From: a virus
Virus record (IMG/VR): IMGVR_UViG_3300045988_159857
Span: 51,791-115,790 of that record
Strand: one strand, 5' to 3'
Length of the DNA stretch: 64,000 bases
Shown here: positions 1,931-14,246 of the stretch, piece by piece
Layout of the letters: each line of letters starts with the position of its first letter
How positions within the stretch are numbered: position 1 is the stretch's first letter
Made by a program: the position numbers and the translations under genes
Notes under the pieces: generated by a model
What the model saw: the letters and a program-made list of their open reading frames with translations, nothing else
What the model was told of the DNA's origin: nothing
Databases searched by the model: none

Positions 1931-2024
1931 ACTTTACTCCTTTCGTAGATGACAAGTGTCATCTCCGCCGGTTATAGTTCACAAACCTCCTTTTCTTTTA
2001 GCTTAGGTTTCAAGTTTATGTAAA

Positions 2025-2052
2025 ATACAAACGGGTTTAATCCCGTTTGTAT
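2025..2052 (-). terminator. rho-independent terminator
   Basis: Stem ATACAAACGGG/CCCGTTTGTAT with a 6-nt loop, followed by TTTTA on the minus strand. Confidence 0.6.
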
Positions 2053-2068
2053 TGTTACCATTCGTTTA

Positions 2069-2596
2069 TTAAGCTTCCAAATCATTAAGTTTATAAATAT
2101 TTGCAAACTTAATAGTTTGTATTTCATTTCCTGAACTACCGTTGTTTTTCGTGAAATACAAATCTATTATACAATTTTTATAAGGGGAACCTTCAAGGGT
2201 TTCTGTGAAGAGGTAAATTCCTTCTTCAGGCCAAATTGTCAGAAACTTTGATTTTGTATTTGATTTTTCATTTAAGTTAGCAACCTGAAGGTAATAATTT
2301 GTAGTAACTAAATTATATTTAACTTTGTTTTCAACAATCCACTTATAATTATTTGTAGACTTTCTTTTTGTATCTTTTTCTTGTCTATTTTTAAGTCTTT
2401 CTACGACACTTCTAATGTTGTGATAATTAACACCTACTCGAGCACTTTTTTCAGTAAACTTAATTATCTTAAGACCTTTTTTATAAAAATCAGCTTTAAC
2501 AGGTAATTCTGTTCGGTAACCTACTCTAACAATTCTTCCATTACCAATGTCAGTAACCTTTTTAATTAACTTATCCTTTTCAATTGTTCCAAACAT
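2069..2596 (-). CDS. hypothetical protein
   Basis: Start trimmed to MFGTIEKDK (ATG 2596), preceded by AAGGAG. The longer ORF-track start overlaps promoter 2629..2661. Confidence 0.6.
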   Translation of the reverse strand: MFGTIEKDKLIKKVTDIGNGRIVRVGYRTELPVKADFYKKGLKIIKFTEKSARVGVNYHNIRSVVERLKNRQEKDTKRKSTNNYKWIVENKVKYNLVTTNYYLQVANLNEKSNTKSKFLTIWPEEGIYLFTETLEGSPYKNCIIDLYFTKNNGSSGNEIQTIKFANIYKLNDLEA

Positions 2597-2628
2597 TTTA
2601 ATAATCTCCTTATTTAATTTACACTTAC

Positions 2629-2661
2629 AGTATAGTATATTTTTAGTTAACATTCAACTAA
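2629..2661 (-). promoter_or_regulatory. sigma-A-like promoter with extended -35 TTAGTTGA
   Basis: TTAGTTGAAT, 17 nt spacer, TATACT. Confidence 0.6.
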
Positions 2662-3227
2662 AACTTATTTGAAGTTATTTCTTTATGTAGTTTAATGAAA
2701 TCCCAGGCCTCTGAAATGTTTTTAACTCGTATATCATAATAATTAAGTTGACAGTTATGATTATATGGCTTATCAATAAGTATTCTTATACTATCACTAT
2801 TTTTAATATTTTCTTCATAATCATCAATTATATAATCACATTTTATAATATCTTTATGTGAGGTAAAAATTATGTCAGAAGCTTTAATTACATTACCAAA
2901 ATGGTTTAATATAGAGTCTTCCATTTTCGCCTTGATTGTTCGATAATCAGAATCAGTAACTATATAAACAATGTTGTCTTTCTTCATCTCTTTTATAACG
3001 TCAATATAGTTGTTACTAACAGGAACATTTAACCAAAAGTACTCATTATATAAGGGTTCAAAAATTTCTTCTTTTGAAAGTGTTGGAAAAACTTTAGTCA
3101 TATCCCAATTACACACTTCGTTTACATTAACCCGTGTTCCGTGTTTGTTGTTTAACCAGTTAATCCAGGTTATTAACATATCGTTTAATACTGAGTCATA
3201 ATCACATAATATAATATCGTTAGACAT
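2658..3227 (-). CDS. HAD-superfamily 5'(3')-deoxyribonucleotidase-like protein
   Basis: N-terminal DxD nucleophile motif (ILCDYDSVLND). Size and layout resemble NT5C-type nucleotidases. RBS AAGGAG. Confidence 0.55.
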   Translation of the reverse strand: MSNDIILCDYDSVLNDMLITWINWLNNKHGTRVNVNEVCNWDMTKVFPTLSKEEIFEPLYNEYFWLNVPVSNNYIDVIKEMKKDNIVYIVTDSDYRTIKAKMEDSILNHFGNVIKASDIIFTSHKDIIKCDYIIDDYEENIKNSDSIRILIDKPYNHNCQLNYYDIRVKNISEAWDFIKLHKEITSNKF

Positions 3228-3257
3228 ATTTGTAACTCCTTAAATTTATGTAATTAT

Positions 3258-3290
3258 ATTTTAATATTTATTTAGTACATAATCAACTAA
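3258..3290 (-). promoter_or_regulatory. sigma-A-like promoter with extended -35 TTAGTTGA
   Basis: TTAGTTGATT, 17 nt spacer, TAAAAT. Confidence 0.55.
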
Positions 3291-3308
3291 AAAATAATTG
3301 TAAAATAA

Positions 3309-3333
3309 AACACCGGTATTAAATACCGGTGTT
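3309..3333 (-). terminator. rho-independent terminator downstream of tRNA
   Basis: Stem AACACCGGTATT/AATACCGGTGTT, followed by TTTTATTTT on the minus strand. Confidence 0.8.
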
Positions 3334-3371
3334 TAAGTAAAGGAGGACACAAAAATATAACAAACAATATA

Positions 3372-3445
3372 TGGCAGGAATAAGTTGATTCGAACAACTA
3401 CTGCAGCAGTCAAAGTGCTGTGTGCTACCGTTACACCATACTCCT
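3372..3445 (-). tRNA. tRNA-Gln (anticodon UUG), CCA encoded
   Basis: Hand-folded cloverleaf. Acceptor AGGAGTA/TATTCCT has one G-U pair. D arm is GTG(T)/(G)CAC with GG in the loop. Anticodon stem is CAGCA/TGCTG with loop CTTTGAC. T arm is AGTTG-TTCGAAT-CAACT. Discriminator G is followed by CCA. Confidence 0.9.
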
Positions 3446-3454
3446 ATATCAAAA

Positions 3455-3522
3455 GGCCTGGTACATAAAGGAAGGAAGATAAATAAAACAATACTAAATA
3501 CTACGGAGGTATGTACCAGGCC
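3455..3522 (-). other. long-loop hairpin between upstream ORF and tRNA (processing or terminator-like structure)
   Basis: 12-bp perfect stem GGCCTGGTACAT/ATGTACCAGGCC enclosing a 44-nt loop. TTTT follows, and the tRNA starts 9 nt later. Confidence 0.4.
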
Positions 3523-3532
3523 GAGGAATAAT

Positions 3533-3856
3533 TTACATTTCTGACTCTACTTTATTAAGCGTATTTCGATAGTTATCGAGTTCGGCGCTAGAATCATTTA
3601 CATACTTTATCATTTTTCTAAGATAGTTTTTAGATTCATAATACTGTTTAAGAGCCTCACGATATTTTTCATTAGCTCTTTTGTATCTTTTATCTCCAAC
3701 AAGAACGTCACAACGACATTTTGCAAGTCTGGCACCCTTAAGAGGGTCATATTTATCATTAGCAGAACAAACAGCCTTACATTTAATAGTTTTGCCGGCA
3801 TAATGACTTACACAATAAACTATATGTTTATCATCATTGAAATAATATCTATACAT
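3533..3856 (-). CDS. hypothetical protein
   Basis: 107 aa with RBS AAGGAG. Preceded by promoter 3895..3928. Confidence 0.6.
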   Translation of the reverse strand: MYRYYFNDDKHIVYCVSHYAGKTIKCKAVCSANDKYDPLKGARLAKCRCDVLVGDKRYKRANEKYREALKQYYESKNYLRKMIKYVNDSSAELDNYRNTLNKVESEM

Positions 3857-3894
3857 TTTTCCAAATCTCCTTATCCAAATTTACATACATATAT

Positions 3895-3928
3895 ATTATA
3901 TAATATAAATGTAAAAATTTTCAACTAA
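3895..3928 (-). promoter_or_regulatory. sigma-A-like promoter with extended -35 TTAGTTGA
   Basis: TTAGTTGAAA, 18 nt spacer, TATAAT. Confidence 0.55.
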
Positions 3929-4046
3929 TTTTTAATATTTCAGTTAACCTTTACAACAATATCATTTGTTATCTTGTAAAGTATACAAATATCGGGTGAT
4001 GGATGAAAATACTCTAAACATAATAATTATTTAATATCCAAAGGTT

Positions 4047-4238
4047 TTAAACATATATTTCCTCATCCGAGTGTGGTCCAAATTTATTTTGATATTTAAA
4101 CCTGTACGATGATTTGGTAACAACACTAGGTGAGCAATGATATAAAGTATCATCTTCCAATTTAATATAAATTAAAGGGTCATCATCCCCACTAAGTATA
4201 AAACCTTTACTTTCTGTAAATGTGTACTTAATTTTCAT
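4047..4238 (-). CDS. hypothetical protein
   Basis: 63 aa on the coding strand, downstream of promoter 4295..4327. The RBS is weak. Confidence 0.45.
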   Translation of the reverse strand: MKIKYTFTESKGFILSGDDDPLIYIKLEDDTLYHCSPSVVTKSSYRFKYQNKFGPHSDEEIYV

Positions 4239-4294
4239 AATCTTTAAACCATTTCCATTCTACCATTGTATCGCTACCTAAATTTTATACTTAA

Positions 4295-4327
4295 ATTATA
4301 GTAAATATTAAATAAATTATCAACTAA
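4295..4327 (-). promoter_or_regulatory. sigma-A-like promoter with extended -35 TTAGTTGA
   Basis: TTAGTTGATA, 17 nt spacer, TATAAT. Confidence 0.6.
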
Positions 4328-4359
4328 AAAATACATTATTTTTAAAAATGCGAAACATA

Positions 4360-4392
4360 ACGGGGAAAAGACCGTCATGTCATTTTCCCCGT
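4360..4392 (-). terminator. hairpin terminator after endolysin gene
   Basis: Stem ACGGGGAAAA/TTTTCCCCGT with a 13-nt loop. The T run is displaced by about 10 nt. Confidence 0.5.
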
Positions 4393-4415
4393 ATCACAAT
4401 TTAAATAAAAATAAA

Positions 4416-5498
4416 TTACTTGTAAATCTTAAGTACTTGTCCAACATAAATCCTGTTAGGATTAGAGATACCGTTGTCAGAAGCTATCTTACGATAGTTT
4501 GTATGGTATTTTACAGCAATACTAGAAAGGGTATCTCCACGCTTAACAGTATAAGTTACATAAGAAGGTTTGGGTGTACCAACTTTATTGTTTACAATCT
4601 TTTGGATAGTATCATAATCGTAACCTGCTGCAGTTAACTTATTCTTACGTTCAGCTCCATTACCCCATTGCCCCTTAAGTACTTCGTTAGCAATTTCTTC
4701 ATTTGATTTAACAGGAACAGTTTTAGTTACTCTTTCGTTAACAATTTTTTGAACAGCACTGTAGTCGTAACCAGCTTCTGTCAAACGTTGTTTACGTTCA
4801 TCACCGTTACCCCATTGTCCGTTTATAATTTCCGTAGCAATTTCCTCATTTGATTTCTTCACAGGAACGGTGTCGGTTGTAGTATCAGAAGATTTAATAA
4901 CTTCATTATACATAATGTTCATATCAACGTTTCCTGAAATACCGTCTACAGAACCCTTTGATGAATACTGCCAAATATCGTATGTTCTTGTAAAGTCGTT
5001 AACCTTCGAGGCGTATTCTGCTACCCACTTACTAACATTGTCGTACCAAGCATCGGTCATTTTCTCGTTCCAGAATGCCGAGCGTGACGAATAAATACCC
5101 ATCTTATAACCAGCTGCGGTTAACTGATTATAAAATTCTTTCATTATTTCTAACATTTTCTCGTTACTAATTGTTCGCCAGTCAAGTCCTTTTGTATTCT
5201 CGACATCAATGTACACAGGACCATCAATAGTCTTACCATTAAGTAATCTCTTAATGTGAGACATTTCACTAGTTACTTTACTTGTTGTTAAAGCATAACT
5301 AAAGAAATATACCGAGACAGGAATACCTACCCTGCGACACTCAGCATAGTTTCTTTCAAACTGTTTGTCATCTTGTGATTTAAGGTCATTACCAAGACCA
5401 CAGCGAATAATAGCGAATTGTACACCAGAAGCCTTTACTTTGTCCCAGTTAATTTCGCCTTGATATTTCGACACATCAATACCTTTAAATTCTGCCAT
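4416..5498 (-). CDS. endolysin: GH25 muramidase + 2 x CW_7 (Cpl-7-type) repeats + LysM
   Basis: N-terminus [27 protein letters not shown] is GH25-type. Two near-identical repeats occur (SNEEIAxExxxGQWGNGxERKxxLTxAGYDY). The C-terminal LysM reads [43 protein letters not shown]. Confidence 0.93.
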
Positions 5499-5529
5499 AT
5501 AATAATCTCCTTTTTAATTATTTAATATT

Positions 5530-5703
5530 TTAGGTAAGTGTTTCTTTGTAAGGACATGTTTCTAAACACTTGTCTAAGTCACAATAAGTGTCATATACAG
5601 CGTCGAACACACTGTTATTCTGTTCCATCGCTTTTTCTTTTATTGAGTCTCCAACAGGACATTCATCACACTTTAAGTATTTTGTTCTATCAAATATATC
5701 AAT
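5530..5703 (-). CDS. candidate small Cys-rich protein (about 55-57 aa; start non-canonical ATT or ATA)
   Basis: The frame is open for 60 codons between TAA 5715..5713 and TAA 5532..5530 on the coding strand. AGGTGG lies at 5712..5707. ATT 5703 overlaps the upstream TGA as ATTGA, and ATA 5697 lies 9 nt from the SD. It encodes ...KCDECPVGD...YCDLDKCLETCPY.... The only ATG (5628) would give 32 aa (MEQNNS...KETLT) without an RBS. Confidence 0.35.
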   Translation of the reverse strand: MDIFDRTKYLKCDECPVGDSIKEKAMEQNNSVFDAVYDTYCDLDKCLETCPYKETLT

Positions 5704-5887
5704 TACCCACCTTTACATATAACCCACAATGACAAGGTCCAGGGTCCTTACAGTTTATAAAATCTTTACACATACATTTAGTGTCTTCATTTTTAATTAA
5801 ACGACAAGGACAATATCCATCATTATCTTTTAATTTCTTTCTAATGGAGTTTACAAGACTTTCGTCATTGTTGACGACTATCTTCAT
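5699..5887 (-). CDS. ferredoxin:thioredoxin-reductase catalytic-subunit-like (FTR/FDR-like) mini-protein
   Basis: 62 aa with a CPC-x9-CMC-x11-CHC pattern (GYCPCRLIKNEDTKCMCKDFINCKDPGPCHCGLYV). This recalls the CPC..CPC..CHC signature of FTR catalytic subunits. RBS GAGGTGA. Directly follows the nrdG-like gene. Confidence 0.6.
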   Translation of the reverse strand: MKIVVNNDESLVNSIRKKLKDNDGYCPCRLIKNEDTKCMCKDFINCKDPGPCHCGLYVKVGN

Positions 5888-5888
5888 T

Positions 5889-6362
5889 TTAACTTATCAC
5901 CTCAGCATATTGATTGTCACTTACTAAATCTATTCCTAATATTTTGTCATAATGGGGTTTTTGATTGGGAATAAATCTCCCGTATTTGATAATGATATTT
6001 TCATATTTACTTAACCAAAGTACTTTATCTTGTAACTCATCTTTATAATATCCTGTGTAGATAATAATTTTTGCATCAGTATAATTTCGCGCTGTCTTTA
6101 CTAAGCTCTTTAAATCTTCCCAACTATCAAAAGGTTCCAACCCTCCACAAACAATTGCTTTTGTGATATTGTTATTTATGAACTTTTTAACAATTGAACC
6201 TTCCGTTACATAAATATCTTTTTCATTTGTAAGGGAGATGTTTTGACAGACACAGTTCCCATTTTCCTTGTTACATTTGAAAGAACACTTTGGAAAGATT
6301 ATAAACATTGAAGGTTCTTTGTAATTACAGAAATCCTCGTATATTATATCTTTAACAAACAT
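5889..6362 (-). CDS. nrdG: anaerobic RNR activating protein-like radical-SAM enzyme (NrdG-like)
   Basis: N-terminal Cys cluster region is FPKCSFKCNKENGNCVCQN. The GGLEP SAM-binding-like motif is present. Size is 157 aa. Lies immediately downstream of nrdD. Confidence 0.7.
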   Translation of the reverse strand: MFVKDIIYEDFCNYKEPSMFIIFPKCSFKCNKENGNCVCQNISLTNEKDIYVTEGSIVKKFINNNITKAIVCGGLEPFDSWEDLKSLVKTARNYTDAKIIIYTGYYKDELQDKVLWLSKYENIIIKYGRFIPNQKPHYDKILGIDLVSDNQYAEVIS

Positions 6363-6821
6363 TTACATCACCATGTCGTGTTCTAATACCGAGTACCACT
6401 TACGCATATCTCCTTCTTTACGGCGAACCGTTTGCCAACTACTAACAGGGGTGTAGAAACCTACAACTCTACGGTATTTGTCCTTAACGCCTTTCCCACA
6501 CATAGGGCACTTTGTAGTTCCTATGAAAGAGTGTCCGTCTTCACATACATTTATTGTGGTAGTAAACGCCGAATATATTACCTTATGTTCCGCAAGATAA
6601 TTTAACATTTCCCAAGCAGCTTCTTCTGTCGGGAATCTATTTTCAATGTTAATGTGTGCAATAGCTCCTCCGCTACAAAGATTGTCTAATACACTACTTA
6701 CAGCACACTTTTCTTCAATAGTACATTTTTCATAAAGGGGTATCCACTGATTTGACAGTATAAAGTATGAGTTGTCTCCTGTAACTACTTTAGACTTTAT
6801 ATTTAATTCATTGAACTTCAT
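6363..6821 (-). CDS. nrdD: anaerobic ribonucleoside-triphosphate reductase, C-terminal fragment (glycyl-radical domain)
   Basis: Contains LSNQWIPL and SGGAIAHINI. Zn site is CEDGH..CPMCG. Glycyl-radical motif is RRVVGFYTPVSSW. AAGGAG lies 8 nt upstream of the third codon ATG (6821); the ORF-track start is 6827. Confidence 0.85.
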   Translation of the reverse strand: MKFNELNIKSKVVTGDNSYFILSNQWIPLYEKCTIEEKCAVSSVLDNLCSGGAIAHINIENRFPTEEAAWEMLNYLAEHKVIYSAFTTTINVCEDGHSFIGTTKCPMCGKGVKDKYRRVVGFYTPVSSWQTVRRKEGDMRKWYSVLEHDMVM

Positions 6822-7638
6822 TACCATAACTCCTTAATTCACTAATAAAATTTTCAAACTGACTGCGATATATCGTCATATAGTTTAATTTATTTTTAAT
6901 TGCAAGTTCATGTTTTTTCTTGTCTAAGATTGACCAAGTGTATATTATCATATTTGACCAATCGTCTCCTTTCTGAAGTAGTTCGTTCAGAACTTTTACA
7001 TCACGGTCGCATTTATCATTGTATGCGTGGTCAAAATGTGAGGGGTGTATATTCAACTCAATAAATAAATCTTGTGATTTTATATAGAAATCACACTTAT
7101 AAGGGTATCTTTCATCTGTGTATTGACATATTATATCATCTTTATTATATTTACATTGTAAGGCTTCGTAAGCAAGATGTTCATAACTAGAAGTTGCATA
7201 TGTCCCATTTTTCTTGCGGGTTTCGTTTGCAACCATACTTCTTCTTTTATACTCTTCTTTCGAAATAGTTTTTCTATTCCTTCTTGCAGAATCAGACATC
7301 CTTTTGTGGTATAAGTCGTACTCCTCTTTTGTCCAAGAATTTCTGGACTGTTCTTTTTTGTATTCCCTATTATCACGATAGTCGTCCGAAACATTTTGCC
7401 AGAACTCTTTTAGGGTATTAGAAATCTTCTCACTACGTTTACGGTTGTATTCTTCCCACATACCATTATTCTTTAATTTATCATTAACTTTTCTAACCCC
7501 GGCACCAGATTTTTCATTAAGTTCTTTCTGATTCCAATTTCCAATTGACCATCCCTCATCAATATATCTTGACAAATCCTCTGTTCTCACTTTAGTGTTT
7601 ATGTGGTCCTTATTTATAAAAGTATATATCTTTCCCAT
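6808..7638 (-). mobile_element. free-standing homing-endonuclease-like gene inserted in nrdD
   Basis: Start trimmed to MGKIYTF (ATG 7638) behind AAAGGTGA. The basic middle region has NUMOD3-like repeats (KRSEKISNTLKEFW; RKTISKEEYKRRS). The C-terminus YKCDFYIKSQDLFIELNIHPSH resembles Vsr/DUF559-type PD-(D/E)xK nuclease cores. The gene sits exactly between the two nrdD fragments. Confidence 0.6.
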
Positions 7639-7704
7639 CAAATCACCTTTACCAATTGATTTTACGTATATATACAATTTTAAATTTGAAATCAGTGGTT
7701 ACCT

Positions 7705-9399
7705 TTAACGTATTCTATATCTTTCTATGTATTTCTCGTCCATATCTAATCCATTTCGAATAGCGGTGTCAAATGTCACCTTTATGTCACCATTTTTTTT
7801 AGTTACTTTAACAATATTAGTGCTATTTATCTTGTAATAGTGGTCCTTGTATTCAAATTCATAATCATAAGCGAGTTTTCTTGCATCCTCAAATAAAAGT
7901 TTGTCTGCAGCACACATGACTCCTGCAGCGTTTTCAGCCGGTATCTGTTCAATATTAAACGTAAACTCGTCTGTAAAATTATCTTTCACATCATTAAGGA
8001 CATTAAATATATCTTTTGCAAACTCAATACCCTCTTCTGTGTAAGACTTGTATCCCAATTCATCTGTTTGAATGAAACCAAACTCACACATAACTTCATA
8101 CATTCCAAGAATACCTATAGTACAGTATTGTTTATCAAGTTCTACGGCACCTTCTTGATAATTTGGAAGTAATCCTTTTTCAATATTACGTTTAAGTATA
8201 TGTCGCATAGCATATAAAGCCTGACAATCAAGGGTTGTTCTCTCTCTTAATTTATCTAAGTACCTTTTCTTGTTACACTTAGTTTCATAAGCAATACGTA
8301 CAAGGTTTATTGTAGAAACACGACAACTACCTACACTAAGAGCACTACCACCTACACTATTTTGAAAAGCTGTTAATTTTGAAGTATCTGAAAGTAATCT
8401 ACAACAGTTAGATAACGAGGTTACTTGGTCACTAATAAATAAATTACTATCAGCCCATTTCATGTTATGTTTACTAGCCCAACGAGCAAATTCCTCGTCT
8501 TGAAACCTACCATCCTTATACAGAAATGACATAGTTAGAACAGGAAAAGTAAACATTTGTTCTGAACGTATGTCAGACACAACTCTCATAAAGTCTTTTT
8601 GGAACTGCATTATTTCTTCAATACTGTCTATTGCAAAAGTTCCGTCAGGATATTCAAGTCCCCCAAATAAGGCCTCTAAGTATTTTCTATCAAATATAGA
8701 CATATTTGTAAAGGCACTTTGGTCAATCCTTAAAAAGGGCTGGTTAAGTCTAAATATCAACTTTTGGAAACACTGGTCTCTGTAATATCCAGGGTCTTTT
8801 ATGTAAAATCCTGTCTCAATATCCTTTTTCCAGAACCAATATGCCCATATTAAAATATTTGGAAGTCCTACTGCCCCACTTTGTCTATTAGATAAAAAAG
8901 ATATAAACTCTATGCAGTCATCAAGAAATGTAGTTAAATGTTTTGCTGGTTTGTTGTTATAATTGTTTCCGAGGAAGAATAGTCCTTCGCGAGCTAATCT
9001 TGATAAGTCTTGTGCCCAACAATAGGCGAATAAACTACATGAAGTACTATCATTAAGATAAAAACCTTTACTAAATTCTTGTTCCAACCAATCTTTAGCT
9101 ACTTTAATTCCAAAAAACTTCTTTATCTCTATAAAGACTTTATTGAGTCCAAAAAGTTTGTCAGAACTTTTTCCTTTTTCAGTCATAAAGGAACGTATGT
9201 CACGATGACTTGAATTAGCATTAGGGTCAATTGAGGCATCAGCCAAGTTTTCAGCTACAATAAAATTTTTCAAAAATTCAGAATAATCTAATTGTGACTC
9301 GTCAACACCGTTAAGTATTTCAAAATCGTTGCCATATTTTATACGCAGGGCATTGAGGGTGCGTTCAAAATCTTTGTTAAGTTTCAACTCGATTTGCAT
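7705..9399 (-). CDS. nrdD: anaerobic ribonucleoside-triphosphate reductase, N-terminal/catalytic fragment
   Basis: 564 aa with class III RNR motifs: SNCCRLLSD finger-loop-like motif and NIEQIPAENAAG. It ends after AADKLLFED plus a 59-aa non-conserved tail. The YxSNQWIPL continuation is found in ORF 6363..6821. Confidence 0.9.
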   Translation of the reverse strand: MQIELKLNKDFERTLNALRIKYGNDFEILNGVDESQLDYSEFLKNFIVAENLADASIDPNANSSHRDIRSFMTEKGKSSDKLFGLNKVFIEIKKFFGIKVAKDWLEQEFSKGFYLNDSTSCSLFAYCWAQDLSRLAREGLFFLGNNYNNKPAKHLTTFLDDCIEFISFLSNRQSGAVGLPNILIWAYWFWKKDIETGFYIKDPGYYRDQCFQKLIFRLNQPFLRIDQSAFTNMSIFDRKYLEALFGGLEYPDGTFAIDSIEEIMQFQKDFMRVVSDIRSEQMFTFPVLTMSFLYKDGRFQDEEFARWASKHNMKWADSNLFISDQVTSLSNCCRLLSDTSKLTAFQNSVGGSALSVGSCRVSTINLVRIAYETKCNKKRYLDKLRERTTLDCQALYAMRHILKRNIEKGLLPNYQEGAVELDKQYCTIGILGMYEVMCEFGFIQTDELGYKSYTEEGIEFAKDIFNVLNDVKDNFTDEFTFNIEQIPAENAAGVMCAADKLLFEDARKLAYDYEFEYKDHYYKINSTNIVKVTKKNGDIKVTFDTAIRNGLDMDEKYIERYRIR

Positions 9400-9402
9400 A
9401 TA

Positions 9403-9621
9403 CTAATTAATTCCTCTTCCTTGATTATTAACCCATTCTACAGCTTCAGTAAATCTAAGTAGTTTTCCTTCTACTTCGAGAAGAGGAACTTCGTCAAAAC
9501 CTTTTGCAATAAGTTCGTTTACATCAAAATTTGTTTTCAATGTAAAGTCTATGTTAGCGTTATGAAGTTTCTTAAGTAACACCTCACATTTTGGACATCC
9601 TGTTGAATATAGCGTTACCAT
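9403..9621 (-). CDS. glutaredoxin/NrdH-like redoxin
   Basis: Start trimmed to MVTLYSTGCPKCEVLLKKL behind AAAGGAG (5-nt spacer). CPKC active site with thioredoxin-fold layout (..VPLLEVEGKLL..). Confidence 0.75.
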   Translation of the reverse strand: MVTLYSTGCPKCEVLLKKLHNANIDFTLKTNFDVNELIAKGFDEVPLLEVEGKLLRFTEAVEWVNNQGRGIN

Positions 9622-9637
9622 AATTACTCCTTTCTTT

Positions 9638-9811
9638 TCAATGGTTAAAGGTATTCTTAGGGGTAAAAGCTCCACAAGGACCTTCAGTGCCATGACAACC
9701 GTGTGTATAATTAGCACAAGCCCAACATCTCTGTTTGTCCCACTTTCTTTGAAGTGCTCCTTCACTCAATTCACTAAAACTATAAGTAGGTTGTTTAAAT
9801 TCAATACTCAT
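9638..9811 (-). CDS. small Cys-rich protein (57 aa), absent from the ORF track
   Basis: AAAGGAG lies 8 nt upstream of ATG 9811. Product is MSIEFKQPTYSFSELSEGALQRKWDKQRCWACANYTHGCHGTEGPCGAFTPKNTFNH, with Cys spacing CxxC-x6-C-x6-C. First gene after promoter 9866..9898. Confidence 0.55.
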   Translation of the reverse strand: MSIEFKQPTYSFSELSEGALQRKWDKQRCWACANYTHGCHGTEGPCGAFTPKNTFNH

Positions 9812-9865
9812 AAATATTACTCCTTTATATAAATTTTACAGAAATTTGTTTTTCTGTTTAATCGT

Positions 9866-9898
9866 ATTATAATAGAGTAATATATTTATTTCAACTAA
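9866..9898 (-). promoter_or_regulatory. sigma-A-like promoter with extended -35 TTAGTTGA (RNR operon)
   Basis: TTAGTTGAAA, 17 nt spacer, TATAAT. Confidence 0.6.
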
Positions 9899-9906
9899 GT
9901 TAACAT

Positions 9907-9931
9907 AAACCGATAGTTTATCTATCGGTTT
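9907..9931 (-). terminator. hairpin terminator overlapping stop of upstream ORF
   Basis: Stem AAACCGATAG/CTATCGGTTT with a 5-nt loop. The T run is weak. Confidence 0.5.
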
Positions 9932-10125
9932 AACATCATTAACAATTGGTCACCGTTTGCGACCTTTCTACCATAAAAATCTCTTGTTACGTTTAATTTT
10001 TTATCGTATTTACCCTTAATTCTTCCATAAAAATCTCGGATAATTTTATTTCCGGTACGGGAATCTGTTTCAACGAAACCTATTATCTTCCCTGTCCAAT
10101 CTTTTATCTTCTCTTTATGAACCAT
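9922..10125 (-). CDS. hypothetical protein with internal RDFYGR repeat
   Basis: 67 aa. Two copies of ..RDFYGR(I/K).. lie 20 aa apart. RBS GAAGGAG. Confidence 0.55.
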   Translation of the reverse strand: MVHKEKIKDWTGKIIGFVETDSRTGNKIIRDFYGRIKGKYDKKLNVTRDFYGRKVANGDQLLMMLNR

Positions 10126-10483
10126 CCAAAAACAACTCCTTCATATTAACAATCCTTGACAAGGCTTCTTCTACACTTAATACGTTGACTTGAGTTATAC
10201 CTTTTCGCCTGTCGTTAACAAATATATCTATTGCTTTCTCCAACTTTGCTGGATTAAACTGTTGGTAGTCGTATACAAATGTTCTAGGTATTGTATAATC
10301 ATTCTCCTGGTCAATTATTTGTGGTCCGTATTGAATTATTTTACTGAACCCGTCTTTTGTTTCAACTATAAATAAGTATTCACAGAAATTATCATTTATA
10401 CACGAAAGTGCAAACTCTCCAATATTATCTATTTCAAATGTACCATTAGATTGTCGAACATAGTAATAATTGAATGAAGGCAT
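10115..10483 (-). CDS. hypothetical protein
   Basis: Start trimmed to MPSFNYYYV (ATG 10483), 1 nt after the upstream TGA. The ORF-track start would overlap the upstream gene by 38 nt and has no RBS. Confidence 0.5.
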   Translation of the reverse strand: MPSFNYYYVRQSNGTFEIDNIGEFALSCINDNFCEYLFIVETKDGFSKIIQYGPQIIDQENDYTIPRTFVYDYQQFNPAKLEKAIDIFVNDRRKGITQVNVLSVEEALSRIVNMKELFLDGS

Positions 10484-10484
10484 A

Positions 10485-11081
10485 TCAATCAACAACCTCG
10501 TATTTAGTAATGTAAACCTCATGTGCTATACGAATTTCATAGTCCCCGTTATCAAGTAATTGTTTATGTTCTCTAGACCTAAATTCTCCTGACACTTTTA
10601 ACTTTGTGTCTACACATTTAAAGGATAATTCTTTCGCTATTTTACCCCAACATATACAAGGAATATATGAATTCAACCTTTTTTGTTTATCCTCGGATAC
10701 AATATTATTTGCCAGAATAAAGTGTAAGTTATCCTTACCTGTACGTGTTTTTCTTATTTCACTTATTTTACAAATCCTACCATCTAACTCAACACTATTT
10801 ACAACATCCGTTTTCGGTTTGTCAAAGTAGGTAAAAACGTACATATCCACTTTATTTTTGTTATTACTAACCTTATGCGAATATGACCTAATGTTTCCAG
10901 TTAAACTAACCATGTCATTTTCTTTGTACGGATTAGTAAATTTTTTAAACTTTATATTCAAGACATCTTCAGTTCCATTATCTCGAGGTACAAGTAATTT
11001 AGCTTTATTGAATTCAATTCCTTGTATTGTGTGGGAAGGTTCAATATCTTTGATATAACCTTTCAAAGTAACTTTGTTCAA
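10485..11081 (-). CDS. tandem OB-fold SSB-like protein
   Basis: Start trimmed to TTG 11081 (MNKVTLKGYIKD) behind GGGGTGA. Each half shows the bacterial SSB OB pattern. First half: VTLKGYIKDIEPSH..GIEFNKAKLLV. Second half: VELDGRICKISEIRKTRTGKDNLHFILANN...CICWGKIAKEL...LKVSGEFRSRE. Confidence 0.5.
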   Translation of the reverse strand: MNKVTLKGYIKDIEPSHTIQGIEFNKAKLLVPRDNGTEDVLNIKFKKFTNPYKENDMVSLTGNIRSYSHKVSNNKNKVDMYVFTYFDKPKTDVVNSVELDGRICKISEIRKTRTGKDNLHFILANNIVSEDKQKRLNSYIPCICWGKIAKELSFKCVDTKLKVSGEFRSREHKQLLDNGDYEIRIAHEVYITKYEVVD

Positions 11082-11095
11082 ACTATATTCACCCC

Positions 11096-12403
11096 TTATA
11101 CACACATTTTCCACTGTCCATTATCATAAACATATGGCACTGCGGATAACCATTTTTGTTGTTTTTCATCGTATACAAAAACTGCAGCTGGAGTTGGGAC
11201 ACTTGTCGGTTCCGTAAAAACTCTCGCACACCCGGTAGGTGTGTTTGTTACAGTATTTGAATGATAAGTTACATTATTTGAATCTTTAGTAGCATAAGCT
11301 GTTCCTGATATAGGAACATTGGGAACACCTGTCACCCTAAATGTACATTTTGTTGTAGCTGTAGTTGTGGTGTTAACTATTCGTGTGCCGTCATTGAGTA
11401 ATAAATACCAGTTACGACATGGGACATCACTTTCCGCTGTGTAAACAATATCTAATCCTTCTACAACACTGGCTAATTTAATTATTGGATAAGTCGTATC
11501 ACAGTTAATTGTTGTTGAATTGTCAATACGAGTATTATCGAGTCTTTGTAAAGTGATGTTGTAAGAACGGTTTGTGTTCTCACCTAAATTAACATTAAAA
11601 GTTCCTTTATAATTTTGTGTGTTACCAACATAAACCCCTTCGAACCACACACTAGAATTTATATCAGTATCTAAACTTAATATTCCGGAAGTATTGTCAG
11701 TAACTGTTATCTTTGCATTATTTATAGCAGGCCTTCTGCAATCCCATGTTACGGTTGGGCTTTGTCCCCAAGGACCATTTACACGCTTTGCCCAAAGATA
11801 AACAGTGTGAATAGTGGGACTTATATTACTTAGTGACCACGTACCGTTTGTAGTAGCTTGTGACCAATATGTTGTGTCTCCTGTACCATCTAAGTTATAC
11901 ATCCAAATGTCACAACTTACATCACTACCAGCTTCCCAATATAAGGAGGATGCAGTACAACCTGCATTACTTAACCACACATTAGGAGGGGCATAAGCCG
12001 GTGCCCCAACTACCACTGACCAAACAACTTCCCAAGTATTTTTTGCGGGACACCCACAACTTGATTTTGTCCAAATTTTCAGTGTGACAGTATCTCCATA
12101 GTTAGTTGTAGAAACGGTTACATTACCACTATACCTCCCTGAACTCCATTTATTTGGACTAGTAGGTTTGTGATATATTTCTACTAGAGGGCTATCATCA
12201 ATACTTGCAGCTACACCAAGGGTGTAACCAAAGTACGAATACTTACCTGTCATTGCATTTAAGGACGCACTTACATTACATGTAAGAGTCGAACCATTTC
12301 TGTATATGTCCCCAAAGGTTACGTTAGAGGTTATTATAGGTGATTGGGGATAATAGGTATTAGGGGCTCCATGTACGGTTACTACTCCGTTCCAACTTGA
12401 CAT
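11096..12403 (-). CDS. putative tail fiber / receptor-binding protein
   Basis: 435 aa, rich in S, T, N and W, with beta-rich composition. The C-terminal aromatic-Gly-Trp repeats (VFVYDEKQQKW, YVYDNGQWK) are shared with CHAP protein 52515..53534. Follows a fiber-like gene. Confidence 0.45.
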   Translation of the reverse strand: MSSWNGVVTVHGAPNTYYPQSPIITSNVTFGDIYRNGSTLTCNVSASLNAMTGKYSYFGYTLGVAASIDDSPLVEIYHKPTSPNKWSSGRYSGNVTVSTTNYGDTVTLKIWTKSSCGCPAKNTWEVVWSVVVGAPAYAPPNVWLSNAGCTASSLYWEAGSDVSCDIWMYNLDGTGDTTYWSQATTNGTWSLSNISPTIHTVYLWAKRVNGPWGQSPTVTWDCRRPAINNAKITVTDNTSGILSLDTDINSSVWFEGVYVGNTQNYKGTFNVNLGENTNRSYNITLQRLDNTRIDNSTTINCDTTYPIIKLASVVEGLDIVYTAESDVPCRNWYLLLNDGTRIVNTTTTATTKCTFRVTGVPNVPISGTAYATKDSNNVTYHSNTVTNTPTGCARVFTEPTSVPTPAAVFVYDEKQQKWLSAVPYVYDNGQWKMCV

Positions 12404-12407
12404 TTAA

Positions 12408-12806
12408 TCACCTAACCTTAAAGAATAACTGTCCTTGTACCCCTGTTGTAGGTAAAGTACTCCCGTAGACATTATTACTTAAAACTATTTTTTGCGTATC
12501 AGTAAAGGTTGGTTTGTTGAACTCATATGTTGTACTTCCTGATTTGGGAGTAAATATAGAACCGTTACAAGATAGATTACCAACATTAAACACTGGTGTA
12601 TCGTTTGTCACATCAATGTTTAACCACGACTTTGAAATTTTACTAGCCTTATCAGCCGTTCCCGCATTAACTTTTGTAACAGTTCTATCAGGTAGTCCTA
12701 CATAAAGATATTTAGTACTTGTGTTAACAAAAAGTTCTCTGTCATCCAAAGTAGCAGGAGTACTTCCACCACCATTTATACTAATTGGTACATTAAGTGT
12801 TTCCAT
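12408..12806 (-). CDS. putative tail-fiber-like protein
   Basis: Start trimmed to METLNVPI (ATG 12806) behind AAAGGAG. The motif LDDRELFVNTSTKYLYVG is typical of phage fiber N-termini. Confidence 0.45.
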   Translation of the reverse strand: METLNVPISINGGGSTPATLDDRELFVNTSTKYLYVGLPDRTVTKVNAGTADKASKISKSWLNIDVTNDTPVFNVGNLSCNGSIFTPKSGSTTYEFNKPTFTDTQKIVLSNNVYGSTLPTTGVQGQLFFKVR

Positions 12807-13548
12807 TAGTTTTCTCCTTTTTCTCTTTTTGTTTTTTTTCAAATTCCTTTACTATTTTAATTTCCTCTTCTGTAAAAGGAACTTGTTCTATTTGTGTTTC
12901 CCCTTTTCTAACACTGTTAATAAATTTTATGGCATTAGAAAGTTTAGAAGCTTCAGGGTCATCTTTAATTTCTTTATTAAGTGTTTCCGACTTTAAATCT
13001 AAAGAGTCAAAGTAATAGTTAATAACTTCTTGTCTTTCCTCTTCAGTAGCCTTATCCCATCTGTCATCTATTTCAAGTCCCACATCAGAAAGAAGTAATC
13101 CGTCAAGATGGTCAATATGGTGTTGCATAACTCTTGCAGCCATACCTATCAACTGTACACTTTGTATTTTACCAAGTGGTGTTTGATAAGTTACATTTAT
13201 TTTAGGGTGTCTTATTCTAATAAATGTTTTACCGGGAATACTATGACAAGTTTCTTTTGAAAGCTCAATACCCTCTACTTTGTCAATTATAGGATTAACA
13301 AACGTCCTTATATCACCATCAAAATTTATACAAATAATACGTTTATTGTAACCTAATTGATTTGCCGACAACGCACAAATTTTCTCATCAGAACGAATGA
13401 CAGCTTTAAGTTTAGAAACAATTGTTTGAACTTCATTGTTTTTCTTTGTTAAGTCAAATTCGTCGCATCTCTCTGATAAACTATCATAATCAGTAACAAT
13501 GTCCTTTTTACTTAATTTTCTAATTTCATCAAAATTAAAAATTTCCAC
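12793..13548 (-). CDS. def: peptide deformylase homolog with non-canonical active site
   Basis: Motif 1 is ICALSANQLG (canonical GxGxAAxQ). Motif 2 is ETCHSIPG (canonical EGCLS). Motif 3 is QHHIDHLDG (canonical QHExDH). GTG start behind AAAGGAG. Charged C-terminal tail. Confidence 0.8.
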   Translation of the reverse strand: MEIFNFDEIRKLSKKDIVTDYDSLSERCDEFDLTKKNNEVQTIVSKLKAVIRSDEKICALSANQLGYNKRIICINFDGDIRTFVNPIIDKVEGIELSKETCHSIPGKTFIRIRHPKINVTYQTPLGKIQSVQLIGMAARVMQHHIDHLDGLLLSDVGLEIDDRWDKATEEERQEVINYYFDSLDLKSETLNKEIKDDPEASKLSNAIKFINSVRKGETQIEQVPFTEEEIKIVKEFEKKQKEKKEKTNGNT

Positions 13549-13550
13549 TA

Positions 13551-13829
13551 TTAGTTATCTCCTTTTAACTCAGTAACAACAAGTTTATATGTATCACTGT
13601 CAAAGTCAGCAATTAAATTCAATGAATATTTATCACTAGTATAGAGTATGTTTGATACTGTTTTACTAATAACACTTGAATCATAATTCTCTTCAACTAA
13701 ATCACTTTTATCAAGTTTACTAAATGCAGAGTTGTATTCTTCAGGACTTTCAAAATCTATAACATAATTATTATCAGATGAAAAATATCCCGGTTGAGTT
13801 ATACCAATCTTTCTTAACAAATCTTTCAT
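13551..13829 (-). CDS. hypothetical acidic protein
   Basis: 92 aa on the coding strand with RBS AGGAGAG. Confidence 0.55.
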   Translation of the reverse strand: MKDLLRKIGITQPGYFSSDNNYVIDFESPEEYNSAFSKLDKSDLVEENYDSSVISKTVSNILYTSDKYSLNLIADFDSDTYKLVVTELKGDN

Positions 13830-13866
13830 ATATATCTATAATCTCTCCTAATCTTATACAATTTGT

Positions 13867-14193
13867 TCACAATTTCAAGTTGTCAATAATCGACTTGTTA
13901 TCCTCTATAACATGTTGACCATTTTTGTTTTTTGAGGTTTTTAATAACAAATTATTTTTATCATATTTACGTTGTTTTTGTTTCTTCTTAGGCTTATCAA
14001 GAAGGTACTTTATATAACTTAAATTCTGATAACTTGTGATAACGGGGTTTATTGTTAATTTAAGGTTTTCAAGTCTTTCAGGAGAAACCATCCCTTCTTC
14101 AACTTCTTTAGACATATCTTCTAAACACTTTTTTAATTCAAAATATTGTTTACACACAGAATTATAATATTCGTCAAAATGCTTTTTAGCCAT
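13867..14193 (-). CDS. hypothetical protein
   Basis: Start trimmed to MAKKHFDEYYN behind GGAGG. The longer call runs through terminator 14211..14246. Confidence 0.5.
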   Translation of the reverse strand: MAKKHFDEYYNSVCKQYFELKKCLEDMSKEVEEGMVSPERLENLKLTINPVITSYQNLSYIKYLLDKPKKKQKQRKYDKNNLLLKTSKNKNGQHVIEDNKSIIDNLKL

Positions 14194-14210
14194 TTTACCT
14201 CCAAAAGAAA

Positions 14211-14246
14211 GGCGTACTACAAATATTTTTAACACTGTAGTACGCC
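14211..14246 (-). terminator. rho-independent terminator
   Basis: Stem GGCGTACTAC/GTAGTACGCC, followed by TTTCTTTT on the minus strand. Confidence 0.7.

What the first reader, a model, noticed from the sequence alone, without database searches (positions are those of the whole stretch)
6363..9399. nrdD is split into two separately translatable ORFs by a homing-endonuclease-like gene
Seen:
- The 564-aa ORF stops 59 codons after the conserved AADKLLFED.
- The next conserved NrdD block (YxLSNQWIPL, then the Zn site and glycyl-radical motif) resumes in ORF 6363..6821.
- That ORF has its own AAGGAG 8 nt before an ATG.
- The interval holds an 831-nt gene with NUMOD3-like repeats and a PD-(D/E)xK-like C-terminus. 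Its stop overlaps the downstream fragment.

Established: T4 nrdD carries a group I intron with I-TevIII. Aeromonas phage Aeh1 nrdA is split by mobE into two polypeptides that reassemble.

Inference: this is a two-polypeptide NrdD generated by endonuclease-gene invasion rather than by an intron. The glycyl-radical domain would then be supplied in trans.
Basis: partly seen in the sequence, partly recalled or inferred. Interest (0 to 1): 0.65.

Follow-up and report, generated by a model that had tools for sequence, protein, structure and literature searches.

The report
Mobile endonuclease cassette splits phage nrdD
A selfish homing-endonuclease gene has inserted into this phage's anaerobic ribonucleotide reductase gene and cut it into two separately translated proteins, and it carries its own conserved extra peptide ends that probably let the two halves reassemble.

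Summary
On the minus strand, nrdD is two ORFs: N piece 7705..9399 (564 aa) and C piece 6363..6821 (152 aa). An 831-nt free-standing endonuclease gene (6808..7638) lies between them.

No intron or intein is detectable, and positive controls for both scored in related loci.

A 54-kb metagenomic phage contig (L252) is 95-96% identical and collinear with the window. It has an intact 641-aa nrdD; window 7918..6756 (1163 nt) replaces 52 nt there.

The inserted unit is a cassette with four parts:
- codons for a 61-aa C-terminal tail plus a stop codon
- a Vsr-like nuclease gene with an EDxHD-like motif
- a Shine-Dalgarno site and ATG
- codons for an 18-aa N-terminal head

About ten distinct nrdD alleles carry this cassette, and they are scattered among intact alleles in the NrdD tree. 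In three phages the cassette is 85-99% identical at nucleotide level, while the flanking nrdD is only 55-78% identical.

Tail and head are under purifying selection. The endonuclease gene decays in some lineages while both nrdD pieces stay intact.

This closely parallels Aeromonas phage Aeh1 nrdA-a/mobE/nrdA-b, but in a class III RNR with a different endonuclease family. It is a new member of a known kind. Reassembly and activity are inferred, not shown.

The parts
9866..9894 (-). Promoter-like site (TTGAAA-17-TATAAT) upstream of the operon: glutaredoxin-like gene, nrdD-N, HEG, nrdD-C, nrdG
   Evidence: 11 of 12 consensus matches. No terminator-like site on the minus strand between here and nrdG. 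This is a consensus match only.
9403..9621 (-). Small glutaredoxin/NrdH-like gene (CPKC motif), directly upstream of nrdD-N
   Evidence: thioredoxin-type hits; translation. The same gene precedes nrdD in L252 and L253.
7891..9399 (-). nrdD-N core (residues 1-503): barrel part of class III RNR, including the finger-loop NCCR
   Evidence: Pfam NRDD E = 4.9e-53, model positions 30-445. 96% identical to the intact NrdD P0177. dN/dS against L252 = 0.03.
7891..7918 (-). 5' co-conversion tract (codons MCAADKLLF): differs from the empty-site allele L252 but matches cassette-bearing L003 and L245
7705..7890 (-). Cassette-borne C-terminal tail of NrdD-N (61 aa, EDARKLAYDYEF...RYRIR) plus TAA stop
   Evidence: Absent from intact alleles. 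Conserved in 10 split alleles at 61-65 aa. dN/dS 0.05-0.41. No homologue in other protein contexts among 1.84 billion representatives.
7639..7704 (-). 66-nt spacer with the SD-like AAAGGTGA for the HEG
   Evidence: No significant RNA structure (z = +1.05).
6808..7638 (-). Free-standing homing-endonuclease gene (276 aa): N-terminal beta-hairpins and helical NUMOD3-like repeats, C-terminal Vsr-like nuclease with invariant D183, E194, N196, H201, D213
   Evidence: 56 homologues, many multi-copy in large phage genomes. Alignment A2. AF2 pLDDT 86. Foldseek: Vsr 1cw0/1vsr probability 0.66-0.72. BFVD hits to endonucleases, NUMOD3, homing endonucleases, DUF559 and Vsr.
6830..6835 (-). AAGGAG Shine-Dalgarno for nrdD-C, inside the 3' end of the HEG
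   Evidence: A-rich GGAG-type SD 7-9 nt before the ATG in the other split loci; weaker in L168.
6768..6821 (-). Cassette-borne N-terminal head of NrdD-C (18 aa, MKFNELNIKSKVVTGDNS)
   Evidence: Absent from intact alleles. M1 invariant and F3 nearly invariant in 18 C pieces (A3). dS 0-0.1 among WIN, L003 and L245, against more than 1.2 in the flanking core.
6363..6767 (-). nrdD-C core: last barrel strands, Zn ribbon (C..H..CxxC) and glycyl-radical loop (RVVGF), plus stop
   Evidence: Pfam NRDD model 437-562, E = 1.7e-25. Aligns to T. maritima NrdD 510-645, E = 1.6e-29. Tm Zn motif and Gly621 loop described in PMC4493059.
6756..7918 (-). Whole stretch that replaces 52 nt of the empty-site allele (cassette plus co-converted flanks)
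   Evidence: blastn of window against L252. Sliding identity WIN/L003/L245 is 85-99% here and 55-78% outside.
5889..6362 (-). nrdG (activase), start codon abutting the nrdD-C stop
   Evidence: Pfam Fer4_12 and PHROG 626. Adjacent in most relatives.

Best explanation
**What it is.** A roughly 1.1-kb mobile cassette has homed into a conserved site of this phage's class III ribonucleotide reductase gene, between codons ..LLF and YFI(Y/L)SNQWIPL.. The cassette consists of:
- 61 codons that extend the upstream reading frame, then a stop
- a free-standing Vsr-like homing-endonuclease gene with an EDxHD-like motif
- an SD and ATG inside the endonuclease 3' end
- 18 codons that lead into the downstream reading frame

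**Shown:**
- the insertion, with an empty-site allele in a near-identical phage
- the absence of intron and intein signals
- the horizontal spread of the cassette among diverged nrdD alleles
- purifying selection on tail and head
- persistence of the split after the endonuclease gene decays

**Inferred:**
- The endonuclease cuts cassette-free nrdD near the insertion site, and repair from a cassette-bearing genome copies in the cassette with short flanking tracts.
- The operon is transcribed as one mRNA.
- NrdD-N (barrel with the thiyl-cysteine finger loop) and NrdD-C (last barrel strands, Zn ribbon, glycyl-radical loop) are translated separately and assemble non-covalently.
- The cassette-encoded tail and head help assembly, as in Aeh1 NrdA-a/NrdA-b.
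- NrdG puts the radical on the 17-kDa C piece.
For: **Insertion**
- Window and L252 are 95-96% identical and collinear, except that 1163 nt in the window stands in place of 52 nt in L252. L252 encodes an intact 641-aa NrdD.
- L250 (split) against L119 (intact) gives the same junction.

**Mobility**
- Split alleles are polyphyletic in the NrdD core tree, with intact sisters at 76-100% bootstrap.
- The cassette is 85-99% identical among WIN, L003 and L245, against 55-78% in the flanks.
- Tail dS is 0.23-0.46 and head dS 0-0.1, against core dS above 1.2.
- The flanking tracts in the window match the donor type, not L252.
- The nuclease domain is multi-copy in many large phage contigs.
- A homologue sits between intact nrdD and nrdG in another clade.

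**No splicing element**
- No intron model scores, with the L114 intron as a positive control.
- No intein signal in tail plus head, with the L004 split intein as a positive control.
- In L247 the N-piece stop is immediately followed by the HEG ATG.

**Function retained**
- N and C ORFs, tail, head and SD are intact in about 10 distinct alleles.
- Tail dN/dS is 0.05-0.41; core dN/dS against L252 is about 0.03.
- The HEG is truncated in L015, carries a nonsense codon plus catalytic E194G in L245, and is frameshifted in L253, while nrdD stays intact.

**Precedent**
- The Aeh1 tails are essential for activity (PMC3045599).
Against: - There is no expression, protein or activity data.
- The AF2 model of the N+C concatenation was poor (mean pLDDT 57.6; tail and head below 50). 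It gives no structural support for a tail-head clasp.
- Tail and head show no charge complementarity, unlike Aeh1.
- Endonuclease activity and target are inferred only. The fold match to Vsr is weak in PDB (E = 0.45, TM 0.5), and a sequence profile finds no solved relative.
- Low core dN/dS between window and L252 mostly reflects time before the insertion.
- Some gains in the tree could instead be losses by gene conversion.
- All relatives are metagenomic assemblies.
Confidence: 0.78

Rival explanations
1. The interruption is a group I (or II) intron carrying the endonuclease ORF. RNA splicing restores one nrdD mRNA, as in T4 nrdD.
For: - T4 and other phages carry HEG-containing group I introns in RNR genes (PMC2988022, PMC3653736).
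- A bona fide group I intron sits at another site of a related nrdD (L114).
- Rfam models do not cover all intron subgroups.
Against: - No intron model scores at E <= 10 in 6300..8100, nor at gathering threshold in the window or seven other split loci.
- Outside the HEG ORF the only non-coding sequence is 66 nt, and 0 nt in L247.
- The 61 codons after the junction stay open in a ~30% G+C genome and evolve under dN/dS 0.05-0.41.
- The C piece has its own conserved SD and ATG.
- No significant RNA fold is found at either junction.
Confidence: 0.04
2. Tail and head are the halves of a small or degenerate split intein that ligates the two NrdD pieces by protein trans-splicing. This would be the 'fractured gene' arrangement of Dassa et al. 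2009.
For: - Endonucleases with a Vsr-like nuclease domain sit between split-intein halves in metagenomic RNR genes (PMC2677866, PMC3239194).
- L004 and L248 have exactly such a split intein at another site of the same gene.
- Crona et al. raised an intein-remnant origin for the Aeh1 tails.
- The window head ends ..GDN|S, which looks like an intein C-terminal junction.
Against: - Tail plus head is 79 aa, well below a HINT domain.
- There is no Pfam intein hit at E <= 10 for four cassette types. The L004 split intein hits PF14890 at 4e-5.
- The N|S junction is not conserved; most heads end ..EDKHE|YY. No conserved Cys/Ser/Thr follows ..LLF.
Confidence: 0.05
3. The insertion simply killed nrdD. 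The two ORFs are decaying remnants and the phage relies on host RNR.
For: - The insertion in the window lineage is recent: the window is 96% identical to an empty-site phage. An inactive gene might therefore not yet show decay.
- The split allele L250 is followed by a methyltransferase rather than nrdG.
- L003 has lost two of the four Zn ligands.
Against: - About 10 distinct split alleles, with cassettes diverged to 25-30% tail identity, all keep full-length N and C ORFs, SD, tail and head.
- The only gene that decays is the endonuclease.
- Tail and head show dN/dS below 0.5.
- Only 8 non-synonymous against 64 synonymous differences separate the window and L252 cores.
Confidence: 0.1

Closest known systems
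Aeromonas phage Aeh1 nrdA-a / mobE / nrdA-b genes-in-pieces class Ia RNR (Friedrich et al. 2007 PNAS; Crona et al. 2011 NAR, PMC3045599)
   Same: - A free-standing HEG splits the RNR catalytic subunit into two ORFs, without an intron or intein.
- The HEG 3' end overlaps the downstream piece.
[quoted passage not shown]
- The split lies in the region of the 10-stranded barrel. The exact strands here are inferred from alignment to T. maritima NrdD.
- HEG homologues sit intergenically beside the intact gene in related phages.
   Different: - Class III (NrdD, glycyl radical) rather than class Ia.
- A Vsr-like nuclease rather than an HNH endonuclease.
- The tail is longer (61 aa, predicted beta-beta-beta-alpha) and shows no charge complementarity with the head.
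- Here the cassette is seen in about 10 alleles, with empty sites and decayed HEGs, so tail and head are demonstrably part of the mobile unit. Aeh1 is a single instance, but it has biochemical proof, which is lacking here.
'Fractured genes': split inteins separated by a free-standing Vsr-like HEG (Dassa et al. 2009, PMC2677866)
   Same: - The same general endonuclease type and the same target class (RNR and replication genes).
- The same gene order: N piece, HEG, C piece.
- L004 and L248 carry such a fracture in the same nrdD.
   Different: There is no intein here. Tail plus head is only 79 aa and lacks splicing blocks and nucleophiles. The pieces must therefore stay separate.
I-Bth0305I / EDxHD homing endonucleases (Taylor et al. 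2011, PMC3239194)
   Same: - N-terminal NUMOD-type DNA-binding part with a C-terminal Vsr-like nuclease.
- Conserved D..N..H..D positions with similar spacing: 13, 5, 12 here against 12, 5, 9.
   Different: - I-Bth0305I is intron-encoded in recA.
- A profile search finds no sequence-level match to 3R3P.
- Pfam places distant relatives of the window protein in DUF7487.
T4 nrdD (sunY) group I intron with I-TevII
   Same: A phage nrdD interrupted by a mobile element that carries a homing endonuclease.
   Different: T4 restores one mRNA by RNA splicing. Here there is no intron, and two proteins are made.
GrcA/YfiD and T4 Y06I autonomous glycyl-radical 'spare part' proteins for pyruvate formate-lyase
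   Same: A small separate polypeptide carries the glycyl-radical loop and complements a large catalytic body in trans.
   Different: - Those proteins replace an oxygen-cleaved domain of an otherwise complete enzyme.
- Here the C piece also supplies barrel strands and the Zn ribbon, and it is the only source of the radical loop.
- The window C piece gave no Pfam Gly_radical hit; only NRDD matched.

Membership tests
HEG-generated genes-in-pieces RNR (Aeh1 type) | A gene that is contiguous in close relatives is split into two ORFs by a free-standing endonuclease gene | tested here: met
   L252 empty site at 95-96% genome identity. More than 50 intact alleles at 60-73% identity.
HEG-generated genes-in-pieces RNR (Aeh1 type) | No self-splicing intron or intein at the junction | tested here: met
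   Rfam negative with a positive control. Pfam intein negative with a positive control.
HEG-generated genes-in-pieces RNR (Aeh1 type) | Unique tail sequences on the C-terminus of piece a and the N-terminus of piece b, originating with the insertion | tested here: met
   A 61-aa tail and an 18-aa head, absent from intact alleles and conserved among split alleles. No homologues elsewhere.
HEG-generated genes-in-pieces RNR (Aeh1 type) | Pieces assemble into an active enzyme and the tails are required | not testable with these tools
   Only indirect evidence: purifying selection, and persistence after HEG decay. The AF2 model was uninformative.
EDxHD / Vsr-like homing endonucleases (I-Bth0305I) | C-terminal nuclease domain with a Vsr-like fold | tested here: inconclusive
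   AF2 pLDDT 86. Foldseek PDB: 1cw0/1vsr E = 0.45-0.6, probability 0.66-0.72, TM(target) 0.5. BFVD hits to homing endonucleases, DUF559 and Vsr-type proteins at E = 1e-11 to 2e-2.
EDxHD / Vsr-like homing endonucleases (I-Bth0305I) | Composite catalytic motif E, D, x(N/H), H, D | tested here: inconclusive
   Invariant or near-invariant E153, D183, N196, H201 and D213 in A2. Spacing resembles D196/N208/H213/D222 of I-Bth0305I. The mapping was done by eye, not by alignment.
EDxHD / Vsr-like homing endonucleases (I-Bth0305I) | Detectable sequence homology to the solved member (3R3P) | tested here: not met
   The profile of A2 against PDB sequences gave no relevant hit at E <= 10.
EDxHD / Vsr-like homing endonucleases (I-Bth0305I) | Cleaves the element-free allele near the insertion site | not testable with these tools
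   Inferred from the homing footprint.
Group I intron | Conserved catalytic core detectable by covariance model | tested here: not met
   No RF00028 or other intron hit in 6300..8100 at E <= 10, nor in 7 split loci at gathering threshold. The L114 intron scored 69.7 bits in the same run.
Split intein (fractured gene) | HINT-domain blocks split between the two pieces, with Cys/Ser/Thr nucleophiles at both junctions and a terminal Asn | tested here: not met
   79 aa in total, no PF14890 or other intein hit, and junction residues not conserved.
Class III RNR catalytic subunit NrdD | NRDD domain complete, finger-loop Cys, Zn ribbon, RVxG(F/Y) glycyl-radical motif, adjacent nrdG | tested here: met
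   Model positions 30-445 and 437-562 are covered by the two pieces. NCCR at residue 331, and CxxxH..CxxC and RVVGF in the C piece. nrdG at 5889..6362.

The most novel reading that the evidence does not exclude
The tail and head are a portable, non-covalent protein-complementation module that travels with the endonuclease gene. It would be an intein-free and intron-free way for a selfish element to make its insertion into an essential enzyme harmless. A side effect could be that the glycyl-radical part of NrdD becomes an exchangeable small subunit. The phage could then replace it after oxygen damage without remaking the large barrel subunit, as GrcA does for pyruvate formate-lyase.
Probability: 0.3. 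Interest if true: 0.8.

Novelty: new member of a known kind. Interest (0 to 1): 0.58.

Why it matters
Crona et al. (2011) proposed, from the single Aeh1 case, that tails brought in by a mobile endonuclease may be a general way to neutralise the fragmentation of essential genes.

This locus gives a second, independent system:
- a different RNR class
- a different endonuclease family
- a natural series of alleles: empty site, active cassette, decayed endonuclease, and several diverged tail and head types

The hypothesis therefore becomes testable by comparison and by simple co-expression experiments.

It also offers a glycyl-radical enzyme whose radical-bearing part is naturally a separate 17-kDa protein. 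That is useful for studying activation by NrdG and domain insertion into the barrel. For annotation, it shows that short 'NrdD fragments' in gut-phage metagenomes can be functional subunits rather than pseudogenes.

Tried and rejected
1. **Duplication at the junction.** The first MAFFT alignment suggested that the N tail and C head both align to the same ~10-17 residues of intact NrdD. Closer intact relatives show a clean breakpoint, LLF|..|YFI, with at most 2-4 replaced codons. The idea was dropped.
2. **Intron.** Rfam at gathering threshold and at E <= 10 found nothing.
3. **Intein.** No Pfam hit for tail plus head.
4. **Regulatory RNA hairpins at the two junctions in the window.** Not significant. 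Other cassette types (L004, L005, L248) do have a GC-rich hairpin over the HEG SD, which was not analysed further.
5. **Structure of the N+C assembly.**
   - The accepted run had a shallow alignment and gave pLDDT 57.6 with tail and head below 50, so it is uninformative.
6. **Tail homologues elsewhere.**
   - The profile search of 1.84 billion representatives gave only short NrdD-end fragments and repeat-like spurious hits.
   - Pfam found nothing.
7. **Megablast of the locus against GenBank phages.** No match. The closest isolate NrdD is Clostridium phage c-st at 41% identity.
8. **Profile search of the HEG against PDB sequences.** Nothing relevant.
9. **Charge complementarity of tail and head, as in Aeh1.** Absent.
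Full report
**1. Observation**

All genes in this part of the window lie on the minus strand.

- ORF 7705..9399 (564 aa) matches Pfam NRDD (PF13597) at E = 4.9e-53. Residues 100-529 cover model positions 30-445.
- ORF 6363..6827 matches the same model at positions 437-562, E = 1.7e-25. Its real start is the ATG at 6821, giving 152 aa.
- The C piece aligns to residues 510-645 of Thermotoga maritima NrdD (4COI/4U3E, E = 1.6e-29). It holds the CxxxH..CxxC zinc motif and the RVVGF glycyl-radical motif. Both features are described for the Tm enzyme in PMC4493059.
- Between the two pieces lies an 831-nt ORF (6808..7638). Its TGA falls inside the C-piece ORF.
- AAGGAG (6835..6830) sits 8 nt before the C-piece ATG.
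- nrdG follows directly at 5889..6362.

One background remark is wrong: the T4 nrdD intron carries I-TevII, not I-TevIII (PMC2988022).

**2. Neither an intron nor an intein**

- Rfam finds only a tRNA in the whole window. It finds nothing intron-like in 6300..8100 even at E <= 10.
- Seven other loci with the same split are also negative. A related nrdD with a 280-nt insertion at another site (L114) scores 69.7 bits for the group I intron model in the same run, which serves as a positive control.
- Outside the endonuclease ORF there are only 66 non-coding nucleotides. In L247 the N-piece stop is immediately followed by the endonuclease ATG.
- Tail plus head (79 aa) gives no intein hit in Pfam at E <= 10 for four cassette types. 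A genuine split intein at another site of the same gene (L004) hits Intein_splicing at 4e-5.
- The residues at the junctions are not conserved nucleophiles.

**3. The empty site**

The best database match of the N piece is P0177, an intact 641-aa NrdD that is 96% identical over the core.

Its 54-kb contig (L252) is collinear with window 15408..1407 at 95-96% nucleotide identity. The one exception is that window 7918..6756 (1163 nt) stands in place of 52 nt in L252.

At codon level:
- L252 reads ..ENAAGV LAKADNLLYGKNKYFIYSNQWIPLYEKC..
- The window N piece reads ..ENAAGV MCAADKLLF, followed by a 61-aa tail and a stop.
- The window C piece reads an 18-aa head followed by YFILSNQWIPLYEKC..

A second split/intact pair, L250 and L119, gives the same junction: a 1218-nt insert replaces 11-12 nt.

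**4. The inserted unit is a conserved cassette**

The same arrangement (N piece, endonuclease gene, C piece) occurs in independent contigs: L003, L004/L166, L005, L015/L134/L191, L168, L245, L247, L248, L250 and L253. About 15 protein clusters of C pieces in the 5.8-billion-protein collection start with the same head.

- All tails are 61-65 aa after LLF and fit one pattern: ..Y(D/W)Y.(F/I).(F/Y).G..Y.(I/L)......V.V.......VS...A(I/F)DN.YD(I/L).E..(L/I).(K/R)(F/Y)..
- Most heads are 17-18 aa; L168 has 25. They begin M(K/R)(F/I)(S/N)E.
- A GGAG-type SD lies 7-9 nt before the C-piece ATG throughout.
- Tail dN/dS is 0.05-0.41 and head dN/dS about 0.2, so both are selected as protein.
- The tail profile finds no homologue in any other protein context among 1.84 billion representatives.

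**5. The cassette moves**

- In the closest 80 IMG/VR relatives, nrdD is intact at this site in nearly all.
- A neighbour-joining tree of the NrdD core was built from 50 representatives with 100 bootstraps. It places split alleles in at least five separate positions next to intact sisters:
  - L250 with L119, 100%
  - L015 with L103 and L088, 100%
  - L168 with L006, 100%
  - WIN, L003 and L245 with L085, 76%
  - L247 with L087, L090 and L086, 87%
- Among WIN, L003 and L245, sliding nucleotide identity is 55-78% across nrdD and nrdG. It jumps to 85-99% from about 7970 to 6780.
- Tail dS is 0.23-0.46 and head dS 0-0.1, while the flanking core has dS above 1.2.
- The short flanking tracts in the window (MCAADKLLF; SYFILSNQ) match the L003/L245 type rather than L252. 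This is what co-conversion during homing would produce.
- In another clade (L006 type, 48% NrdD identity), a homologue of the endonuclease sits between intact nrdD and nrdG. That mirrors mobE in T4 compared with Aeh1.

**6. The endonuclease**

- The 276-aa protein has no Pfam or PHROG hit. It has 56 homologues; distant ones carry DUF7487 with HTH or NUMOD1 domains.
- The nuclease domain is multi-copy in Lak megaphages and in many large phage contigs.
- The family alignment has invariant R177-Y178, C182, F184-Y185-I186, D190, F192-I193-E194, N196 and H201. D183, H198, H204 and D213 are nearly invariant.
- AF2 (pLDDT 86) predicts N-terminal beta-hairpins, long helices and a C-terminal alpha/beta domain.
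- Foldseek gives weak PDB matches to Vsr (1cw0/1vsr, probability 0.66-0.72).
- BFVD matches are better. They include 'endonuclease-like', NUMOD3, homing endonucleases, DUF559 and Vsr-type proteins.
- The D..N..H..D spacing resembles the EDxHD motif of I-Bth0305I (PMC3239194). A profile search finds no solved relative by sequence.
- I therefore call it Vsr-like with an EDxHD-like motif and do not claim strict membership of that family.

**7. The split persists after the endonuclease dies**

- L015/L134/L191 retain only residues 174-269 of the endonuclease.
- L245 has an in-frame stop and the catalytic Glu changed to Gly (FIGLN).
- L253 is 97% identical to the window and has a frameshifted endonuclease gene.
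- In all of these, both nrdD pieces, the tail, the head and the SD are intact.
- Window against L252 shows 46 synonymous and 6 non-synonymous differences in the N core, and 18 and 2 in the C core. This gives dN/dS of about 0.03, similar to neighbouring genes.

**8. Mechanism**

*Shown:* insertion of a mobile cassette, two ORFs each with its own translation signals, and selection on both pieces and on the added peptides.

*Inferred:*
- One operon transcript starts at the promoter-like site 9894..9866, with no internal terminator.
- The two polypeptides assemble without covalent joining. The N piece supplies most of the barrel and the finger-loop cysteine (NCCR). The C piece supplies the last barrel strands, the Zn ribbon and the glycyl-radical loop, which NrdG activates.
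- Tail and head aid assembly. The model for this is Aeh1 NrdA-a/NrdA-b, where the tails are retained in the mature proteins and their deletion lowers activity about 2000-fold (PMC3045599).

Two points give no support for a direct tail-head clasp. Tail and head here lack opposite charges. My AF2 model of the concatenated pieces was too poor to show an interface.

**9. Novelty**

Already described:
- Splitting of an RNR subunit by a free-standing endonuclease with function-restoring tails: Aeh1, class Ia, HNH mobE.
- Split-intein 'fractured genes' with Vsr-like endonucleases (PMC2677866).
- Surveys of phage RNRs listing nrdD interrupted by introns, inteins or unexplained fragmentation (PMC3653736).

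I found no description of an intron- and intein-free two-polypeptide NrdD.

New here:
- the enzyme class
- the endonuclease family
- direct comparative evidence that the tails belong to the mobile unit

I rate this a new member of a known kind.

**Caveats**
- All relatives are metagenomic assemblies.
- The tree is a distance tree on a query-anchored alignment.
- Gains and losses cannot be fully separated.
- There is no biochemical evidence.

Noticed in passing
L037:2055-5432 (IMGVR_UViG_3300039431_001263): A different nrdD subfamily (ATP-cone type) is split at another site, just before the finger-loop MGCR. The splitting HEG shares the nuclease domain (40% identity). Again there is a ~50-aa tail (acidic, helical) and a ~14-aa basic head. 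Pfam NRDD covers model positions 2-245 and 255-562 on the two pieces.
   Followed up: partly
L004:2500-5924; L248:1-3087: In these relatives nrdD is in three pieces. Besides the cassette studied here, a split intein (113-aa N-intein, 36-aa C-intein ending VEN|C) with a 401-407-aa HEG-like ORF between its halves sits at N-piece position ~332. L247, Clostridium phage c-st, P0189 and P0194 have a contiguous intein at that position.
   Followed up: partly
L004:2500-7283; also L093 and relatives: These phages read TGA as Trp: in-frame TGA aligns with W of the window proteins. In L004 the two HEG genes use TGA for 7 of 8 and 3 of 4 Trp codons, while the nrdD pieces use mostly TGG. The window itself uses the standard code in this operon.
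   Followed up: partly
L114:3861-4107: A group I intron (RF00028, 69.7 bits) interrupts nrdD at N-piece position ~229. Other alleles have uncharacterised ~1-kb insertions at positions ~175, 287, 316 and 429. This nrdD clade is a hot spot for mobile elements.
   Followed up: partly
L006, L007, L009, L010, L012: about 4001-4789: A homologue of the endonuclease (about 36% identity) lies between an intact nrdD and nrdG. This is the intergenic counterpart of the in-gene insertion.
   Followed up: partly
L004, L005 and L248: the ~90 nt before the HEG start: A GC-rich hairpin (ccuagccuggug...caggcuagg) overlaps the HEG Shine-Dalgarno (AGGAGG). It recalls the RBS-sequestering hairpins of mobE and I-TevI. 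The window-type cassette has no significant structure there.
   Followed up: no
Proteins P0062, P0084, P0096, P0097, P0112, P0147, P0163: C-terminal NrdD ORFs in the database begin with conserved non-NrdD peptides (..GH(K/R)SNR(L/M) or MV(K/L)KVT(D/E)L) fused at ..|AENCAG, about 20 codons upstream of the site studied here. This suggests yet another recurrent interruption.
   Followed up: no
L003:6812-7276 (and P0057, P0102): Some split C pieces have Asp in place of the first and/or last Cys of the Zn ribbon (VDEHKH..CPIDG).
   Followed up: no
L066, L060, L068, L070: Other copies of the nuclease family sit between gyrB-like and gyrA-like topoisomerase genes, after major capsid genes, and between portal and MuF genes. 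These are typical free-standing HEG positions next to conserved genes.
   Followed up: partly
window 5699..5887 (-): A small Cys-rich ORF (62 aa) with a weak match to the ferredoxin-thioredoxin reductase catalytic chain follows nrdG. It is conserved after nrdG or nrdD in L003, L252, L253 and Clostridium phage c-st, and may be a redox partner of the RNR operon.
   Followed up: no
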